From Terracidiphilus sp. (GTDB lineage Bacteria; Acidobacteriota; Terriglobia; Terriglobales; Acidobacteriaceae), in NCBI GenBank assembly GCA_035508555.1, contig DATJMU010000135.1:16607-80606 (forward strand): 64,000 nucleotides of DNA, read 5' to 3'. Below, one piece after another: positions 58,258 through 64,000 of this stretch. The position numbers were made by a program, and so were the translations under genes. The first letter of the stretch is position 1; the number at the start of each line of letters is the position of its first letter. The notes under the pieces were generated by a model, which did not search any database, had not been told where the DNA came from, and worked only from the letters and a program-made list of their open reading frames with translations.

Positions 58258-58302
58258 TGGAGCGGGAGACCGGGATCGAACCGGCGACATTCAGCTTGGG
58301 AA
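58258..58302 (-). pseudogene. 3' fragment of tRNA-Gly(CCC), interpreted as an attachment site
   Basis: The minus strand reads TTCCCAAGCTGAATGTCGCCGGTTCGATCCCGGTCTCCCGCTCCA (anticodon loop to CCA). The upstream sequence is not a tRNA 5' half. Confidence 0.9.
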
Positions 58303-58430
58303 ACTGCACGTAAATTGAAAACAAAGAACATCGCGAATTCCGGCACCTCTTTCCGGCGATTGAGTTTACGGGGAATTCGCAGTTTTCGATGGCGCGGCGC
58401 TTAATGGAGTTCAAACGGAGTTCACGGATT

Positions 58431-59309: not shown

Positions 59310-59480
59310 GGTACCTGAAACCACGAACTCTGGCACCTGATACCACGAATCCAGATACCTGAAACCCCGAATTTTGGCACCTGAAAGCACGAATCCGAGG
59401 TCTGGTACCTAAAAGCACGAATCTCTTGACACGGTACCTAAAACCACGAATATGTGCTCATGGCACCTGAAAGCACGAAT
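59310..59480 (+). repeat. Seven 19-bp iterons (putative oriV)
   Basis: Consensus GGYACCTRAAASCACGAAT at 59310, 59332, 59354, 59376, 59404, 59433 and 59462. Confidence 0.88.
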
Positions 59481-60536
59481 CCGGATGAACATCTTCTGCC
59501 CGTGAAGCACAGCAACGGCGATCTGTTCATCTGCGATGTGGCGGATGCGGCGCTTAAGGACCTGATTCCGCAGATGGAGCATCCATTTTACTCCCTCTCG
59601 AAGAAGCGGGATACCGAAATTCGGAAATACGAGCATAACGGCAATTGGCTGGAGATAACGCCGAGCGTCAAGGGGCTCGCGACCATCTATGACAAAGACA
59701 TCCTGATCTACTGCATCTCACAGATCATGGAAAAGCTGAAACGCAATGAGCGCGTGAGCCAGCGCGTCCGGATCACGAGCTATGACCTGCTCGTTTTCAC
59801 CAACCGCGGCACGTCGGGCCGTGACTATGACGCGCTGTGCGAAGCGATCGACCGCCTCGCCGGTACCCGGATCACCACCAATATCCGTACCGGCGATGAG
59901 GAGCAGCGCGACAGCTTTGGCCTGATCGATGCGGCGTCCATCCGCCGCAAGCATGGGCTTGACGGGCGCCTGCAATGGGTCGAGATCAAGCTCTCCGACT
60001 GGGTTTTCAACGCCATTCGCGGCCAGGAAGTGCTCACCCTGCACCGGGATTATTTCCGGCTCGGGAAGCCCCTGGAACGCCGCATTTACGAGCTGGCGCG
60101 CAAACATTGCGGCCGGCAAACCACCTGGCAGATTTCTCTCGAAACACTGCTCAAAAAATCAGGCTCTCAAAGTTCGACCAAGCGCTTTCGGCAGCATGTG
60201 AAAGAGATCGCGGAGCACGATCATCTGCCCGACTACCATCTCACCTTTGATGAAAAGAGCGATATGGTGATGTTCATTAACCGCGAGAACAAATGGGTGG
60301 AGCGCCCCCTGCCCTCGGACGATGAAACCTTGCCGCCCCTGCCCGACGAAGCCTATGAGGAAGGACGCAATGCCGCGCCCGGCTACGATGTCCGCGGTCT
60401 TGAAAGCGAATGGCGCGCGTTCTGGGAAGACTCCGGCAAACCGAAGCTCGCCAATCCCGCCGCCGCCTTTGTCGGCTTTTGCCGGAGCCGGCACAAGCGC
60501 GCGCCGCTCCGGAGGACAGGCACGAATGACCGTTGA
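59460..60536 (+). CDS. repA: Plasmid replication initiator RepA (RPA-type)
   Basis: MEHPFYSLSK, GLATIYDKDILIY, YFRLGKPLERRIYELARKHCG. Alternative GTG start at 59454. Confidence 0.88.
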   Translation: MAPESTNPDEHLLPVKHSNGDLFICDVADAALKDLIPQMEHPFYSLSKKRDTEIRKYEHNGNWLEITPSVKGLATIYDKDILIYCISQIMEKLKRNERVSQRVRITSYDLLVFTNRGTSGRDYDALCEAIDRLAGTRITTNIRTGDEEQRDSFGLIDAASIRRKHGLDGRLQWVEIKLSDWVFNAIRGQEVLTLHRDYFRLGKPLERRIYELARKHCGRQTTWQISLETLLKKSGSQSSTKRFRQHVKEIAEHDHLPDYHLTFDEKSDMVMFINRENKWVERPLPSDDETLPPLPDEAYEEGRNAAPGYDVRGLESEWRAFWEDSGKPKLANPAAAFVGFCRSRHKRAPLRRTGTNDR

Positions 60537-60715
60537 GCTCCCTTCCCTGCCCCGGAATCGAAACCGCGCCAGATGCCCGAGGATTCGTCTGGGAAATATT
60601 CTGGCCCTCCCCCGCTCGCCCAAGCATCCGAGCGCTCCTTGGGCAAATTCCCCGGCCTGGCGTCGATTGTGAAAACCGATCATCCGAAAACACCCTGTCC
60701 CACAAGGGGTTTAGT

Positions 60716-60895
60716 GGTACCTGTTTGGTGTCCATCAGATGCCGTAAGAGAAACCTGTCAGGTAGCTATATGGTGACCAACAGATGACATTCGGAAACCA
60801 GATAGATGACCACAGGATGCCAAATAGTCATTTTGCAGAAACCAGAACGGTTCCTCATAGATAACCACTTGTCATCGGATAGCTGACTGGTTACC
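60716..60895. repeat. 11-bp-period array of degenerate GGTNACC-like motifs (putative centromere/operator)
   Basis: Motif starts recur every ~11 bp: GGTACC, GGTGTCC, GATGCC, GAAACC, GGTAGC, GGTGACC, GATGAC, GAAACC, GATGACC, GATGCC, GTCATT, GAAACC, GGTTCC, GATAACC, GTCATC, then GGTTACC. Confidence 0.7.
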
Positions 60896-60952
60896 ATCGG
60901 ACTCTCTGATTCGCGACCCCGCCGCCGTCCACCGCCGAACCCCGGGACCCGC

Positions 60953-61663
60953 ATGCCCACCATCGCTTTTGTATCGCCCAAGGGAGGAGCGGGCAAAACC
61001 ACCTCCGCCTTTCTGCTCGCGACCGCGCTTGCGCGCTTTCAGGAAGTGACCGTCATCGATGCCGATCCCAATCATCCGATCGAGACCTGGGCGAAAGGCG
61101 GCAATGCGCCGCCGAAGCTGACGGTGATCGCGGATGTTGACGAGGACACCATCATCGAGCGCATCGAAGACGCCGCCTCAAAGACACCTTTCGTGATCGT
61201 CGATCTCGAAGGCACGGCGTCGAAGATCGTCGTCTACGCGATCTCACAAGCGGATCTCGTCATCATCCCGACGCAGGGCTCGCAGCTCGATGCCAATGAA
61301 GCGGGCCGGGCGATCCGCGTCGTGATGCAGAGCCAGAAGATGACCCGGAACGAAACGCCTTATGCGGTGCTGCTGACGCGCACCAGCCCGTCCATCCGTA
61401 CGCGGACGCAGACGCATATCCAGAACGGCCTGATCGGCGCCGGCATTCCGGTCTTCAATACCGAACTCAACGAGCGCGATGCCTTCCGGGCGGTGTTTTC
61501 GTTTCAGCAGACGCTGGAGGGACTCAATCCGGCCGACGTCGCCAATCTGGACAAGGCCAGGATCAATGTCTGGGCATTCGTCGAGGAAGTCGTCGAGCGT
61601 CTCAAGCCGGGGCAGGGGGGCGGCAGGGAGGAAGATAACTCCAGCGTGGCCGGTGCGGCATGA
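60953..61663 (+). CDS. parA: Short (type Ib) ParA partition ATPase
   Basis: SPKGGAGKTT, IDADPN, IVDLEG, IIPTQGSQLD; no N-terminal HTH. Confidence 0.9.
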   Translation: MPTIAFVSPKGGAGKTTSAFLLATALARFQEVTVIDADPNHPIETWAKGGNAPPKLTVIADVDEDTIIERIEDAASKTPFVIVDLEGTASKIVVYAISQADLVIIPTQGSQLDANEAGRAIRVVMQSQKMTRNETPYAVLLTRTSPSIRTRTQTHIQNGLIGAGIPVFNTELNERDAFRAVFSFQQTLEGLNPADVANLDKARINVWAFVEEVVERLKPGQGGGREEDNSSVAGAA

Positions 61664-61989
61664 GCGGGCGTGTTGATCCCTTTGCGATTCTGAAAGAGCC
61701 CACGGCGTTCACGACCAAGCCGAAGCCGGAAAAGCGCGTCGAGGAAAACGCCATCGACGACATCGCCCGGCAGAACAATTTTCCGAGCCGCCAGGCGCCG
61801 AAGAAGACTGCGGCGCCCAAACGCGAGCAGCGCCGCTACCGCACCGGGCGCAACCGTCATCTCGGCGTGAAGGCGACGGCGGAGACCGTCGAGCGCTTCT
61901 ACAAAGCCGCGGACAATCGCAACGTTCCGCTTGGCGAGGTGCTGCGCCTCGCGCTCGATGCCTTGGAACGGGCAGGGGGATCGAGTTGA
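61660..61989 (+). CDS. RHH-type partition/stability protein
   Basis: ATGA overlap with parA; flexible N-terminus followed by RHLGVKATAETVERFYKAAD...LGEVLRLALDAL. Confidence 0.75.
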   Translation: MSGRVDPFAILKEPTAFTTKPKPEKRVEENAIDDIARQNNFPSRQAPKKTAAPKREQRRYRTGRNRHLGVKATAETVERFYKAADNRNVPLGEVLRLALDALERAGGSS

Positions 61990-62070: not shown

Positions 62071-62865
62071 ATGCCCGACCTGACAAGAGAATCCGCGAGA
62101 ACGTTTGCCGATCAATTTCGTTCGGCCCGCCTGACTGCGCTTGCCGATTCCGAATCCTTCGATCAAATTGTCCACGTGATTGAACGGCTCGGAAGTTACC
62201 TCACGAAAGAAGAGTACGGCGACAAGGGTGATTACGGCAGCCTCGGAAAGTATCGGTCGCGGCTGGTTGACCTTGTCAGGAGTCGAGGCCTGGCTCTTGA
62301 AAGCCGTCCCCAATTCAACCATCAGCTGACGCCCTTTGAGACGCTTTATGATCTGGTGCAGGAAGCACGGAATGACGCTCTTCATCAGGGGGCTTTTGCT
62401 CGTCATTTAACAAAACACGCGATTGAAATCGCCATTATTTTGGAGGATGTATTGAGCATCGATATGGATTCCATGGTTGCGGATTTTATGATGCGTAATC
62501 CGGTGTGTGGCGAACCGTGGCAGCCAGTTGCGTTTTTGCGTCAACAGATGTTGGCGAATTCCTATTCCTACTTACCCGTATTGAGCCGGGATAATGAATG
62601 GGGTGTCGTCTCAGACGCCGCAATCGCAATGTTCTTGGGCTCCGACCGGAAAGGAAAGGAGCGCAGGAGGCGACTCGCGATGACGCTTGAAGAGGCTGCA
62701 CTGCAGAGCGAGAGGCCGGTGCGCCTGACCTCGGCGGTGTTTATCGATGAAACAGCTCCGCTCGACCGGGCGATCGAGTTGCTCAAAGGCGCACCGATTG
62801 TGCTCGTGCGAAGCCCCGTTGGAACAAGTGTCGTCGGCATATTGACGCCTTTCGACCTCCTTTGA
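62071..62865 (+). CDS. HEPN-like domain fused to a CBS pair
   Basis: Helical N-terminus with ARNDALHQG (RxxxxH); CBS1 VADFMMRNPV...YLPV...GVVSD; CBS2 ...VVGILTPFDLL. Alternative TTG start at 62056. Confidence 0.7.
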   Translation: MPDLTRESARTFADQFRSARLTALADSESFDQIVHVIERLGSYLTKEEYGDKGDYGSLGKYRSRLVDLVRSRGLALESRPQFNHQLTPFETLYDLVQEARNDALHQGAFARHLTKHAIEIAIILEDVLSIDMDSMVADFMMRNPVCGEPWQPVAFLRQQMLANSYSYLPVLSRDNEWGVVSDAAIAMFLGSDRKGKERRRRLAMTLEEAALQSERPVRLTSAVFIDETAPLDRAIELLKGAPIVLVRSPVGTSVVGILTPFDLL

Positions 62866-62883
62866 CAAAGCGGAGGCAACACA

Positions 62884-63507
62884 ATGACGCGCCCCGAATT
62901 CGAAGATCTTCCGTTTGATAAGCGACCGGATCTCACCCCTTATCTTGTTCACCTCACGCGGAATTCGGAAGCGGAAGACGACCGTAGCGCATTCGAGAAT
63001 CTTGTAAGAATCTTGAAGTCTGGGAAAATTCGTGGGAGCACGGACAAGGGGTTCATCAAGGGTCCGACGCCTGCGGCGTGCCTTATGGACGTACCTTTTG
63101 CGTCTCTGAAATATGTCTTCGGTGACAGGAACATTGGAAAGAACGGCCCGCGTTACGAGCCATTCGGGGTGTTTTTCAGCAAGAAATATGGTTACAAGAA
63201 GGGCTGCCGTCCGGTTCTGTACCTTTCGGATGAGGAATTGGAAAATCTTGAAATTCCGGACAAGGAGAAGTGGCGGGTCGTTAGATTTGAGGTCGGGGAA
63301 GAGGGATGGATCAGCTGGCTTCACGAACGGGAATGGCGCTGCCCCAATGGTCTGAAGCTTCCTTCGAGCCCCTATGGCGTCTTGGTGCGCCGCGCTTCCG
63401 ATGCACGGCGTTTGGGTCGTCTGATAGAAAATTCACCGGATAAGTTTGCGGTGAAACCGCGGAGCATCATTCCACTTGAGGTGATTTGTCAGGGCTTACT
63501 GAAGTAA
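62884..63507 (+). CDS. AbiGi-like / ADP-ribosyltransferase-fold protein
   Basis: YLVHLTR, RILKSG, ACLMDVP, YEPFGV, GCRPVLY, HEREWR; GGAGG RBS. Confidence 0.65.
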   Translation: MTRPEFEDLPFDKRPDLTPYLVHLTRNSEAEDDRSAFENLVRILKSGKIRGSTDKGFIKGPTPAACLMDVPFASLKYVFGDRNIGKNGPRYEPFGVFFSKKYGYKKGCRPVLYLSDEELENLEIPDKEKWRVVRFEVGEEGWISWLHEREWRCPNGLKLPSSPYGVLVRRASDARRLGRLIENSPDKFAVKPRSIIPLEVICQGLLK

Positions 63508-63571: not shown

Positions 63572-64000
63572 TCAGCTAAGACCGGTCGTGCAGAGTTTGG
63601 CCATCGCGGCCTCGATCAGAGACGCACGCTTTTCGAGGAAGGCTTGGTAGTCGCCGCTGATCATCTCGTCGAACGGAATCAGATGACTCGCGAGCCGGGC
63701 TCTGACCTCGGGTTCTCCAAGGTTGTTGCCATCCCGCCTCTCCCCAAGATACCGCTCCGGTTCTTTGTCTGAAATGTTTCGATTTGTTCGCCAGGTCACC
63801 AAAGCGCAGTTGAGCGCAAGATAGACTTTGTCGTCGGCAACGCTTGCCCGTGACAAATAGGCAACCGGAAAGAGATGGTGGTACTCTCGCTTACCAAGAT
63901 TCGCGCGAGTGGCGACTCCTCCGTCGGCCAAATCCAGCCCGCCTTGTCTCAGGGCGACTGCGAGAATGGCCCTGGCCAAGCGGTCTCGTCGCACCGGCCA
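63572..64000 (-). CDS. C-terminal part of a GmrSD-like (DUF262/HNH) restriction protein, partial
   Basis: EYHHLFP...NCALVTWRTNRNISDKEP..YL...HLIP; the frame is open to the window edge. Confidence 0.65.
   Translation of the reverse strand, partial: WPVRRDRLARAILAVALRQGGLDLADGGVATRANLGKREYHHLFPVAYLSRASVADDKVYLALNCALVTWRTNRNISDKEPERYLGERRDGNNLGEPEVRARLASHLIPFDEMISGDYQAFLEKRASLIEAAMAKLCTTGLS

What the first reader, a model, noticed from the sequence alone, without database searches (positions are those of the whole stretch)
62071..63507. Candidate new defence system: HEPN-CBS fusion in an operon with an AbiGi/ART-fold protein
Seen: gene 1 has a helical domain with RNDALH (62368-62385) fused to a CBS pair in which one G-h-h-T-x-x-D site is intact (GILTPFD) and the other is degenerate (GVVSDAA). 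Gene 2 follows 18 nt later with a GGAGG RBS and carries HLT (62950), ACLMD and HEREWR (63322) motifs. The pair lies between a par module and a GmrSD-like gene on a mobile element. Established: RxxxxH HEPN dimers are RNases, CBS pairs bind adenosine ligands, and H/E-x-E motifs mark NAD+-using ART folds. Inference: the ART-like partner modifies a target or makes or depletes an adenosine-containing metabolite that gates the RNase, or the two form a toxin-antitoxin pair. HEPN-CBS fusions may already be catalogued computationally; I do not know this pairing as a characterised system.
Basis: partly seen in the sequence, partly recalled or inferred. Interest (0 to 1): 0.8.

Follow-up and report, generated by a model that had tools for sequence, protein, structure and literature searches.

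The report
Two neighbouring solo defence-type genes
The two genes are real and their domains were read about right, but they are not a fixed two-gene system: each family almost always occurs without the other, and each resembles a recently described single-gene anti-phage protein, so this looks like two separate cargo genes side by side on a plasmid-like element.

Summary
Observation confirmed. Gene 1 (62071-62865) has a helical N-domain with an invariant R-N-D-A-x-H motif and a C-terminal CBS pair. Gene 2 (62884-63507) follows 18 nt later behind GGAGG and is a remote AbiGi relative whose model best matches the ADP-ribosyltransferase DarT. They lie between repA/parA and a GmrSD gene in a low-GC element.

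The pairing does not hold. None of 80 genome loci with a gene-2 homologue has gene 1 within 5 kb. None of 80 metagenome loci with a gene-1 homologue has gene 2. The closest gene-1 relative (85%, same par backbone) lacks gene 2, and homology between elements stops at gene 1's stop codon. Only one related contig shares the pair.

Gene 1 resembles DS-11, a validated one-protein CBS+HEPN defence system (Science 2026), but with the domains in reverse order. The CBS pairs are homologous (hhalign 96.7%), the catalytic motif is of the same type (RNDALH vs RNDVMH), and Y165 aligns with DS-11's essential Y157. Gene 1 fails the DS-11 family model (17.5 vs 260 bits).

Gene 2 belongs to a highly conserved, mobile, solo family. 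Single-gene DUF2971 defence (DS-45) is a loose precedent.

Best reading: two independent single-gene defence candidates in a cargo island. This is a new variant of known kinds, of modest interest.

The parts
62071..62865 (+). Gene 1, 264 aa: HEPN-like helical N-domain plus C-terminal CBS pair. A solo family with a constant architecture.
   Evidence: ORF. 294 homologues in the 90%-identity collection. The N-domain profile finds 852 clusters at 50% identity, nearly all about 255-265 aa. AF2 model pLDDT 88.7.
62071..62466 (+). N-domain (residues 1-132). Predicted helices at 6-25, 31-44, [insert 58-71], 89-103 and 107-129, giving a HEPN-like four-helix topology.
   Evidence: DSSP on the AF2 model. 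Invariant E38 in helix 2. Matches the published HEPN description (PMC3710099). No significant Pfam or PDB sequence hit. hhalign against the DS-11 HEPN domain scores 25.1, probability 18-21%, above all 200 column shuffles.
62368..62385 (+). R100-N-D-A-L-H105, an Rx4H motif with N after R. [quoted passage not shown]
   Evidence: R100, N101, A103 and H105 are invariant in 101 sequences. Secondary-structure position. DS-11 has RNDVMH with R330 and H335 essential.
62467..62862 (+). CBS pair (Bateman module), residues about 133-264. Site 2 (GILTPFD) is canonical and site 1 (GVVSDAA) is degenerate. Y165 corresponds to Y157 of DS-11.
   Evidence: Pfam CBS E 1.6e-6. PDB MJ1225 E 7.6e-6. Foldseek DarB E 1.5e-6. 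hhalign against the DS-11 CBS pair gives probability 96.7%. BLASTP 30% identity, E 6e-4, with MLANSYSYLPV aligned to MLRHDYSQLPV.
62866..62883 (+). 18-nt spacer with GGAGG (62872-62876). Homology with elements that lack gene 2 ends at the stop codon just before it.
   Evidence: Sequence. DNA alignment of the window and L162 (both with the pair) against L161 and L163 (gene 1 only).
62884..63507 (+). Gene 2, 207 aa: remote AbiGi-family protein with a DarT-like ADP-ribosyltransferase fold. Candidate H-Y-E residues are H23, Y91 and E148/E150. A solo, highly conserved, mobile family.
   Evidence: PADLOC AbiGi E 3.7e-4 and NCBIfam AbiGI E 1e-3. 94 of 118 family members hit Pfam AbiGi at E<=0.1. AF2 pLDDT 86. 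Foldseek top hits are DarT 7omx E 2.3e-4, then DarT1, DarTG and Tpt1. Invariant residues.
59454..61989 (+). Context: plasmid-type repA, parA and a small par partner upstream, on the same strand.
   Evidence: Pfam RPA E 6.8e-89 and VirC1/CbiA. The same backbone is present in L161 and L162.
63572..64000 (-). Context: 3' part of a convergent 559-aa GmrSD-type gene that continues past the window end. A Fic gene follows it.
   Evidence: ORFs on L164. Pfam GmrSD_N E 3e-20 and Fic E 7e-16.

Best explanation
These are two independent single-gene cargo modules lying next to each other in the accessory (defence-island-like) part of a low-GC, plasmid-type element. They are not a dedicated two-gene system.

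Gene 1 is most likely a ligand-gated HEPN ribonuclease. By inference from established HEPN and CBS biology and from DS-11, two protomers would dimerise through their Bateman (CBS-pair) modules, and binding or loss of an adenine nucleotide at the intact CBS site would set the geometry of the composite Rx4H active site. RNA would then be cut only during infection or stress. In effect it is a domain-permuted counterpart of the validated one-protein system DS-11 (HEPN then CBS, instead of CBS then HEPN).

Gene 2 is a remote AbiGi/DUF2971-type protein with a DarT/Tpt1-like NAD+-utilising fold and a conserved H...Y...E-x-E set. It most likely acts alone on a nucleic-acid or protein target, as a solo defence or mobile-element fitness gene. 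It travels as a cassette, often next to integrases.

Shown: the genes, motifs, folds, family sizes, the lack of co-occurrence, and the cassette-like boundary at gene 1's stop codon. Inferred: RNase activity, ligand gating, NAD+ use, and a defence role.
For: No co-occurrence:
- 0 of 80 genome loci with gene 2 have gene 1 within 5 kb.
- 0 of 80 metagenome loci with gene 1 have gene 2. 67 of these had more than 300 nt of room downstream.
- The 109 proteins flanking gene 2 fall into 91 Pfam families. The commonest is tyrosine integrase (5); none has CBS.
- The 100 proteins flanking gene 1 fall into 89 families; none is AbiGi or DUF2971 among the 25 commonest.

Nearest relatives:
- The 85%-identical gene 1 on the same parA backbone has no gene 2. 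The 78%, 73% and 72% relatives are also solo.
- The 74% and 72% gene-2 relatives sit behind an integrase or unrelated genes.
- Homology stops at gene 1's stop codon.
- The pair recurs only in L162.

Gene 1 resembles DS-11:
- The paper shows a one-protein CBS+HEPN defence whose R330A, H335A and Y157A mutants lose protection.
- CBS against CBS gives hhalign probability 96.7%, and Y165 aligns with Y157.
- Both carry an RND..H motif.
- Gene-1 relatives sit beside an MmeI-type RM gene, SNF2+DUF1156 genes, HsdM and GmrSD.

Gene 2:
- DarT is the top fold match and the family relates to AbiGi.
- A single-protein DUF2971 defence (DS-45) has been validated, and many DUF2971 proteins are predicted to be defensive.
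Against: - The two genes are co-oriented, only 18 nt apart, with no terminator or promoter predicted between them. They are therefore probably co-transcribed here, and the arrangement is kept in one related element. A lineage-specific functional coupling is not excluded.
- The HEPN assignment rests on motif and predicted topology. There is no significant Pfam, PDB or profile-profile match, and the N-domain was never searched by fold on its own.
- Gene 1 scores far below the DS-11 family cut-off.
- Gene 2 shows no detectable similarity to DS-45. Its match to DarT has TM of only about 0.46 with a large rmsd.
- There are no expression or phenotype data.
- The co-occurrence samples are the best 80 loci per search, not exhaustive censuses.
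Confidence: 0.62

Rival explanations
1. In this plasmid lineage the two genes are a functional two-gene module. The ART-fold protein would make, consume or attach an adenosine- or NAD-derived ligand that the CBS pair reads, or it would modify the RNase or its RNA target.
For: The genes share a strand, an 18-nt spacer and a strong RBS, with no intervening terminator. The pair is conserved in L162 at 77% and 83% identity. CBS pairs bind adenine nucleotides and ART folds use NAD+ (established knowledge).
Against: No co-occurrence in 160 loci. The closest gene-1 relative on the same backbone lacks gene 2. Each family has solo precedents (DS-11 and DS-45). The presence/absence boundary of gene 2 lies exactly after gene 1's stop codon.
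Confidence: 0.1
2. The pair is a toxin-antitoxin pair, with the HEPN-CBS protein as toxin and the AbiGi-like protein as antitoxin. This follows Pfam's label of AbiGi as an 'antitoxin'.
For: Pfam PF10899 is described as 'AbiGi, antitoxin'. HEPN toxins with protein antitoxins exist (MNT-HEPN; established knowledge). The genes are tightly spaced.
Against: A toxin needs its antitoxin, yet gene 1 occurs without gene 2 in all 80 sampled loci and in its closest relatives. Gene 2 occurs without gene 1 in all 80. Gene 2 keeps an enzyme-like invariant residue set and a DarT-like fold. The AbiGi 'antitoxin' label is by analogy only, and a 2026 review finds no known function for it.
Confidence: 0.04
3. 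Gene 1 is not a defence nuclease. It is a nucleotide-sensing regulator of RNA stability or of plasmid maintenance, as Anantharaman et al. suggested for HEPN-CBS fusions. Its position after parAB would then reflect a housekeeping role for the element.
For: The 2013 paper proposes stimulus-dependent RNA degradation signalling for HEPN-CBS proteins. Gene 1 directly follows parA and its partner in three related elements. About a quarter of metagenomic loci carry a Sel1-repeat or kinase neighbour rather than defence genes.
Against: The family is patchy, mobile and set in varied contexts, including RM, DISARM-like and GmrSD neighbours. The closest characterised analogue, DS-11, protects against phage.
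Confidence: 0.14
4. Gene 2 serves the mobile element rather than host defence, for example as an anti-defence or establishment factor that ADP-ribosylates a host protein or nucleic acid.
For: The family is about 55-63% identical across many phyla, implying strong constraint and frequent transfer. It often sits directly beside integrases. In L161 and L162 the region carries ArdC-N, DUF6876 and similar plasmid genes.
Against: It is almost absent from 50,697 phage records. AbiGi itself is part of an abortive-infection system, and DUF2971 proteins are validated or predicted as defensive.
Confidence: 0.1

Closest known systems
DS-11 (WP_000257686.1, E. coli; DeWeirdt et al., Science 2026, PMC13092281; NCBIfam NF053863)
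   Same: One polypeptide combining a CBS pair with a HEPN domain. The catalytic motif is of the same type and spacing (RNDVMH in DS-11, RNDALH here). The CBS pairs are homologous (hhalign 96.7%; BLASTP 30% identity). An aromatic residue (Y165) sits at the position of the essential Y157. Both occur as solo genes.
   Different: The domain order is reversed (HEPN then CBS here, CBS then HEPN in DS-11). The protein is 264 aa against 365 aa and lacks DS-11's roughly 115-residue N-terminal region. It scores 17.5 bits against the family cut-off of 260. The HEPN domains align only over helix 3 and the motif (probability 18-21%). No phenotype is known.
HEPN-CBS(-HD) fusions listed by Anantharaman et al. 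2013 (PMC3710099)
   Same: An active-type Rx4-6H HEPN domain fused to CBS, proposed to be gated by nucleotide ligands.
   Different: Those examples (alr3009 and the Pelobacter protein gi 118580987) were not compared here. Some of them carry an HD domain, which gene 1 lacks.
Lactococcal AbiG (AbiGi + AbiGii)
   Same: Gene 2 is a remote AbiGi relative: PADLOC E 3.7e-4, and 94 of 118 family members hit PF10899.
   Different: The window protein scores below Pfam's threshold (13 against 22.4 bits). No AbiGii-type partner is nearby or recurrent. It is 207 aa against about 250 aa. The AbiG mechanism is itself unknown.
DarT of DarTG (ssDNA ADP-ribosyltransferase toxin)
   Same: Best structural match for the gene-2 model (7omx E 2.3e-4, probability 1.0; also DarT1 and M. 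tuberculosis DarTG). It has a conserved His in strand 1 and an acidic E-x-E before a late strand.
   Different: TM is only about 0.46 and sequence identity 12-16%. There is no DarG-type macrodomain antitoxin fused, adjacent or recurrent. Activity is untested.
DS-45 (WP_223151192.1), a single-gene DUF2971 defence protein
   Same: It shows that a small protein of the AbiGi/DUF2971 group can protect on its own. It shares an H-E-x-E-[WY]-R-like motif with gene 2 by eye.
   Different: There is no detectable profile similarity to the gene-2 family (hhalign probability 0.1%). Gene 2 does not hit Pfam DUF2971.

Membership tests
HEPN superfamily | Rx4-6H motif with a polar residue (N/D/H) directly after the R | tested here: met
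   R100-N101-D102-A103-L104-H105. R, N, A and H are invariant in 101 homologues. Definition taken from PMC3710099.
HEPN superfamily | Four-helix bundle with an insert between helices 2 and 3, and the motif at the end of helix 3 or the start of the loop to helix 4 | tested here: met
   AF2 secondary structure gives H6-25, H31-44, an insert with H58-71, H89-103 and H107-129, with the motif at 100-105. This is read from a predicted model's secondary structure only. The 3D packing was not inspected.
HEPN superfamily | Conserved acidic residue in helix 2 | tested here: met
   E38 is invariant and lies in predicted helix 31-44. It is not in a strict Ex3[KR] context.
HEPN superfamily | Significant profile or fold match to an established HEPN family | tested here: inconclusive
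   No Pfam hit for five N-domains at E<=10. No relevant hit for the profile against PDB. Whole-protein Foldseek was dominated by the CBS pair. hhalign against the DS-11 HEPN domain scores 25.1, probability 18-21%, above all 200 column shuffles and the negative controls (10.8-12.7).
HEPN superfamily | Metal-independent RNase activity | not testable with these tools
   Needs a biochemical assay.
CBS pair (Bateman module) | Two tandem CBS motifs matching PF00571 and the Bateman fold | tested here: met
   Pfam 28.8 bits against a cut-off of 24, in 2 stretches. Foldseek against DarB, YkuL, AcuB and MJ0922 gives E about 1e-6 and target-normalised TM 0.67-0.75.
DS-11 family (NF053863) | Score at or above the curated equivalog cut-off | tested here: not met
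   17.5 bits against a cut-off of 260. Only the CBS region aligns.
DS-11 family (NF053863) | Architecture: N-terminal region, then CBS pair, then C-terminal HEPN | tested here: not met
   Gene 1 has HEPN-like residues 1-132 followed by the CBS pair at 133-264. DS-11 has its CBS pair at about 120-245 and HEPN at 252-359, with R330 and H335.
DS-11 family (NF053863) | Works as a single gene | tested here: inconclusive
   Gene-1 homologues have no conserved neighbour, which is consistent with solo function. Function itself was not tested.
AbiGi (PF10899) / AbiG system | Score at or above Pfam's gathering threshold | tested here: not met
   The window protein scores 13 bits against 22.4. The family is clearly related: 94 of 118 members hit at E<=0.1, best 1.7e-6. 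PADLOC AbiGi E 3.7e-4.
AbiGi (PF10899) / AbiG system | Adjacent AbiGii partner gene | tested here: not met
   The neighbours here are gene 1 (HEPN-CBS) and GmrSD. No recurrent partner appears among 109 flanking proteins of the family.
ADP-ribosyltransferase fold (DarT/Tpt1-like) | Fold similarity to solved ARTs | tested here: met
   All of the top 9 Foldseek PDB hits are DarT, DarTG or Tpt1. The best is E 2.3e-4, probability 1.0, TM 0.46-0.48, and the next unrelated hit has E 0.6. The model has pLDDT 86.
ADP-ribosyltransferase fold (DarT/Tpt1-like) | Conserved NAD-site residues (H in strand 1, aromatic residue, catalytic E) | tested here: inconclusive
   H23, Y91, Y113 and E148 are invariant and E150 is conserved in at least 90%. 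They lie on predicted strands or strand starts. Residue-by-residue superposition on DarT was not available.
ADP-ribosyltransferase fold (DarT/Tpt1-like) | NAD+-dependent transfer activity | not testable with these tools
   Needs an assay.
Dedicated two-gene system (gene 1 + gene 2) | The two families are neighbours across independent lineages | tested here: not met
   0 of 80 and 0 of 80 loci. The closest relatives are solo. The pair is seen only in the window and in L162.

The most novel reading that the evidence does not exclude
In this small plasmid lineage (the window and L162), a cassette carrying a DarT-like ART-fold gene was captured directly behind a CBS-gated HEPN RNase, and the two now work together. 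For example, the ART-fold enzyme could turn NAD+ into an ADP-ribose-type ligand, or deplete one, that the Bateman module reads. This would give a two-step sensor-effector circuit not described for either DS-11 or AbiG.
Probability: 0.07. Interest if true: 0.7.

Novelty: new variant of a known kind. Interest (0 to 1): 0.3.

Why it matters
If gene 1 is an active nuclease, it represents a large, uncharacterised family (852 clusters at 50% identity, mostly from soil and peat bacteria). That family would carry the CBS-gated HEPN design of DS-11 in the opposite domain order, making it a natural test of how a Bateman module controls a HEPN dimer. Gene 2 stands for a very conserved, widely transferred, partner-less branch of the AbiGi/ART-fold group whose target is unknown. 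Neither gene is a new principle. The practical lesson is that tight spacing on one element was mistaken for a system. The finding should be ranked as two ordinary solo candidates rather than as a new two-gene defence system.

Tried and rejected
- **Sequence searches of the N-domain.** Pfam on five family members at E<=10 and the profile against PDB gave only noise.
- **Fold search of the whole gene-1 model.** The PDB and viral libraries returned only CBS hits. The viral search was a wasted call, and the fold-search and structure-prediction caps then prevented a search with the N-domain alone.
- **Profile-profile comparison of the N-domain with the DS-11 HEPN domain.** Only helix 3 and the motif align (probability 18-21%), even with a more diverse query alignment. 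I count this as supportive, not decisive.
- **hhalign of the gene-2 profile against single sequences.** A DUF2971 sequence and DS-45 gave no significant match. The DS-45 link therefore stays an analogy.
- **Gene-2 profile against PDB sequences.** No DarT hit by sequence.
- **PHROGs.** Nothing for either gene.
- **Phage records.** One weak gene-2 hit and none for gene 1.
- **Promoter and terminator scan.** Nothing informative.
- **Sel1-repeat/kinase cluster as a conserved partner of gene 1.** It neighbours gene 1 in about 19 of 80 loci. I rejected it as a required partner: it is absent from most loci, lies on either side of gene 1, is clustered through repeats, and comes largely from related peat metagenomes.
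- **tRNA and Rfam scans at the element border.** Nothing found.
Full report
**What is there.** The window holds two co-oriented ORFs exactly as described. Gene 1 runs from 62071 to 62865 (264 aa) and gene 2 from 62884 to 63507 (207 aa). They are separated by 18 nt containing GGAGG, 7 nt before the second ATG. Upstream on the same strand lie a plasmid-type RepA (PF10134, E 7e-89), a ParA/VirC1 ATPase and a small par partner. Downstream, and convergent, lies a 559-aa GmrSD_N protein that runs past the window end, followed by a Fic gene. GC falls from about 0.63-0.67 to 0.53-0.59 at about 58.3 kb and stays low to the contig end. The genes therefore sit in horizontally acquired DNA. Each family has a single copy in this 5.45-Mb genome.

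**Gene 1.** Pfam sees only CBS (28.8 bits, cut-off 24). An AF2 model built on 101 homologues is confident (pLDDT 88.7). Its C-terminal half matches Bateman modules such as DarB, YkuL and AcuB (E about 1e-6).

The N-terminal 132 residues are all-helical: helices 6-25 and 31-44, an insert containing helix 58-71, then helices 89-103 and 107-129. R100, N101, A103 and H105 are invariant and D102 nearly so across the family, and E38 in the second helix is invariant. [quoted passage not shown]

No significant sequence or profile match to a HEPN family was obtained. I therefore treat HEPN membership as likely, not proven.

The N-domain profile finds 852 clusters (at 50% identity) in 1.84 billion proteins. 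Nearly all are 250-270 aa with the same N-domain plus CBS architecture. A few carry extra N-terminal domains such as DUF6946.

**Gene 2.** The window protein hits AbiGi models only weakly (Pfam E 0.11, PADLOC 3.7e-4, NCBIfam 1e-3). However, 94 of 118 family members hit PF10899 at E<=0.1 (best 1.7e-6), so it belongs to a remote AbiGi branch. The AF2 model (pLDDT 86) has DarT as its best PDB matches (7omx E 2.3e-4, probability 1.0, TM 0.46), followed by E. coli DarT1, M. tuberculosis DarTG and yeast Tpt1. Unrelated folds appear only from E 0.6. H23, Y91, Y113, E148 and R149 are invariant and E150 is nearly so. The 'ART-fold/AbiGi' reading is therefore supported at fold level. Activity is untested.

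The family is unusually conserved, at 50-63% identity between Acidobacteria, Planctomycetes, Alpha- and Gammaproteobacteria, Firmicutes and Cyanobacteria.

**Is it a pair?** No.
- I fetched 80 reference-genome loci encoding gene-2 homologues, with 5-kb flanks. None contains a gene-1 homologue (the HMM was checked on the window).
- I fetched 80 metagenome loci encoding gene-1 homologues. None contains a gene-2 homologue, although 67 had more than 300 nt of downstream sequence.
- The immediate neighbours of gene 2 (109 proteins) fall into 91 Pfam families. The commonest is tyrosine integrase; none is CBS.
- The immediate neighbours of gene 1 (100 proteins) fall into 89 families. The commonest is Sel1-repeat proteins; none of the 25 commonest is AbiGi or DUF2971.

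The nearest relatives settle the question.
- The 85%-identical gene 1 sits on the same parA-par partner backbone and is followed at once by an unrelated reverse gene (L161).
- The 78%, 73% and 72% relatives are also solo.
- The 74% and 72% gene-2 relatives follow an integrase plus an 82-aa gene, or unrelated genes.
- Only one contig (L162; 77% and 83% identity) shares the pair, on the same rep/par backbone.
- A DNA alignment of the four elements shows homology ending at gene 1's stop codon. Gene 2 is then either present (window, L162) or replaced by other DNA (L161, L163).

Gene 2 thus behaves as a cassette that landed behind gene 1 in one lineage.

**What is known.** HEPN-CBS fusions were noted in 2013 and proposed to couple nucleotide sensing to RNA cleavage. 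[quoted passage not shown] Its R330A, H335A and Y157A mutants lose protection, and a dimer with ATP is predicted. I took the DS-11 sequence from their supplement.

Comparison with gene 1:
- The CBS pairs are homologous: BLASTP 30% identity, E 6e-4, and profile-profile probability 96.7%.
- Gene 1's Y165 (Y or F across the family) aligns with DS-11's Y157.
- The catalytic motifs are RNDALH (gene 1) and RNDVMH (DS-11).
- The HEPN profiles align only over helix 3 and the motif. The score of 25.1 (probability 18-21%) exceeds all 200 column shuffles (mean 12.5, maximum 23.6) and the HEPN-against-CBS controls (10.8-11.6).
- The domain order is reversed, and gene 1 scores 17.5 bits against the DS-11 model's cut-off of 260.

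Gene 1 is therefore not a DS-11 family member. It is a permuted variant of the same design.

The same paper validates DS-45, a single 181-aa DUF2971 protein, and predicts many DUF2971/AbiGi-like proteins as defensive. I could not detect similarity between DS-45 and gene 2, so this is only a precedent. A 2026 review states that AbiGi and AbiGii have no recognisable function.

**Most likely mechanism.** Gene 1 probably forms a dimer through its Bateman modules. Occupancy of the intact CBS site by an adenine nucleotide would control the juxtaposition of two Rx4H half-sites, so RNA is cleaved only when the ligand pool changes on infection. This is inferred from HEPN and CBS biology and from DS-11.

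Its neighbours support a defence role by association. They include GmrSD here, HsdM in L162, an MmeI-type enzyme in L172/L173 and SNF2+DUF1156 in L175. Plasmid copies in Burkholderia, Cupriavidus and Acidovorax lie among hypothetical genes, HipA, a PLD nuclease and H-NS.

Gene 2 is probably a solo NAD+-using transferase acting on nucleic acid or protein. It has no DarG-like antidote, so it is presumably inactive until triggered. A role for the mobile element itself (anti-defence or establishment) is a live alternative.

**Verdict.** The locus is best described as two adjacent single-gene candidates in a cargo island. Gene 1 is a new variant of the CBS-HEPN kind and gene 2 is a divergent solo AbiGi-like ART-fold gene. 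A lineage-specific functional coupling cannot be excluded (about 7-10%) and is cheap to test.

Noticed in passing
window 58258-58310 (minus strand): The reverse complement reads ...GCCGGTTCGATCCCGGTCTCCCGCTCCA, which looks like the 3' half of a tRNA (T-arm, acceptor strand and CCA). It lies exactly where GC drops from about 0.65 to about 0.55. ARAGORN and Rfam find no complete tRNA there. It may be an att-site remnant marking the border of an integrated element that carries the rep/par genes.
   Followed up: partly
L094, L102, L107, L113, L129, L154 and others (metagenome loci of gene-1 homologues): About 19 of 80 gene-1 loci have a large same-strand neighbour with Sel1 repeats. Several of these carry an N-terminal Ser/Thr kinase domain, and the neighbour can lie on either side of gene 1. 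Ten of the 100 distinct flanking proteins hit Pfam Sel1. The 2013 HEPN survey also lists Sel1/TPR partners for the AbiU2 and LA2681 HEPN families. This could be a real association or sampling bias from peat Acidobacteria.
   Followed up: partly
L001-L066 (genome loci of gene-2 homologues): The 207-aa gene-2 family stays 50-63% identical across at least six phyla. It often sits directly after a tyrosine integrase, sometimes with an 82-aa gene in between (L168, L169). This is a striking level of conservation for a partner-less mobile gene of unknown function.
   Followed up: partly
L162 6863-7849: The only other element with the pair also carries a separate 328-aa DUF2971 protein (E 4.5e-9) two genes downstream. 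It occupies the slot where the sister elements L161 and L163 carry a DUF4172-Fic gene. The window's own element has a Fic gene beyond GmrSD. This looks like a hot spot for swapping cargo.
   Followed up: no
L175 393-5187; L172/L173 1-4795: Gene-1 homologues at 72-73% identity lie immediately upstream of an 1181-aa SNF2/NOV_C helicase plus a DUF1156 gene (DISARM-like), and near a 932-aa MmeI-type restriction-modification enzyme and a Prim-Pol gene.
   Followed up: no
P0362 (481 aa), P0366 (378 aa): Rare family members carry an extra N-terminal domain in front of the HEPN-like plus CBS core: DUF6946 (E 3.8e-69) in P0362, and a weak DUF429 match in P0366.
   Followed up: no
window 59400-61560 compared with PLSDB plasmids: The repA and parA DNA is 73-76% identical to plasmids of Paracoccus, Thioclava, Salipiger, Komagataeibacter and Sphingobium. 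The replicon is therefore of an alphaproteobacterial plasmid type, although it sits on an 83.6-kb contig with chromosomal genes.
   Followed up: no
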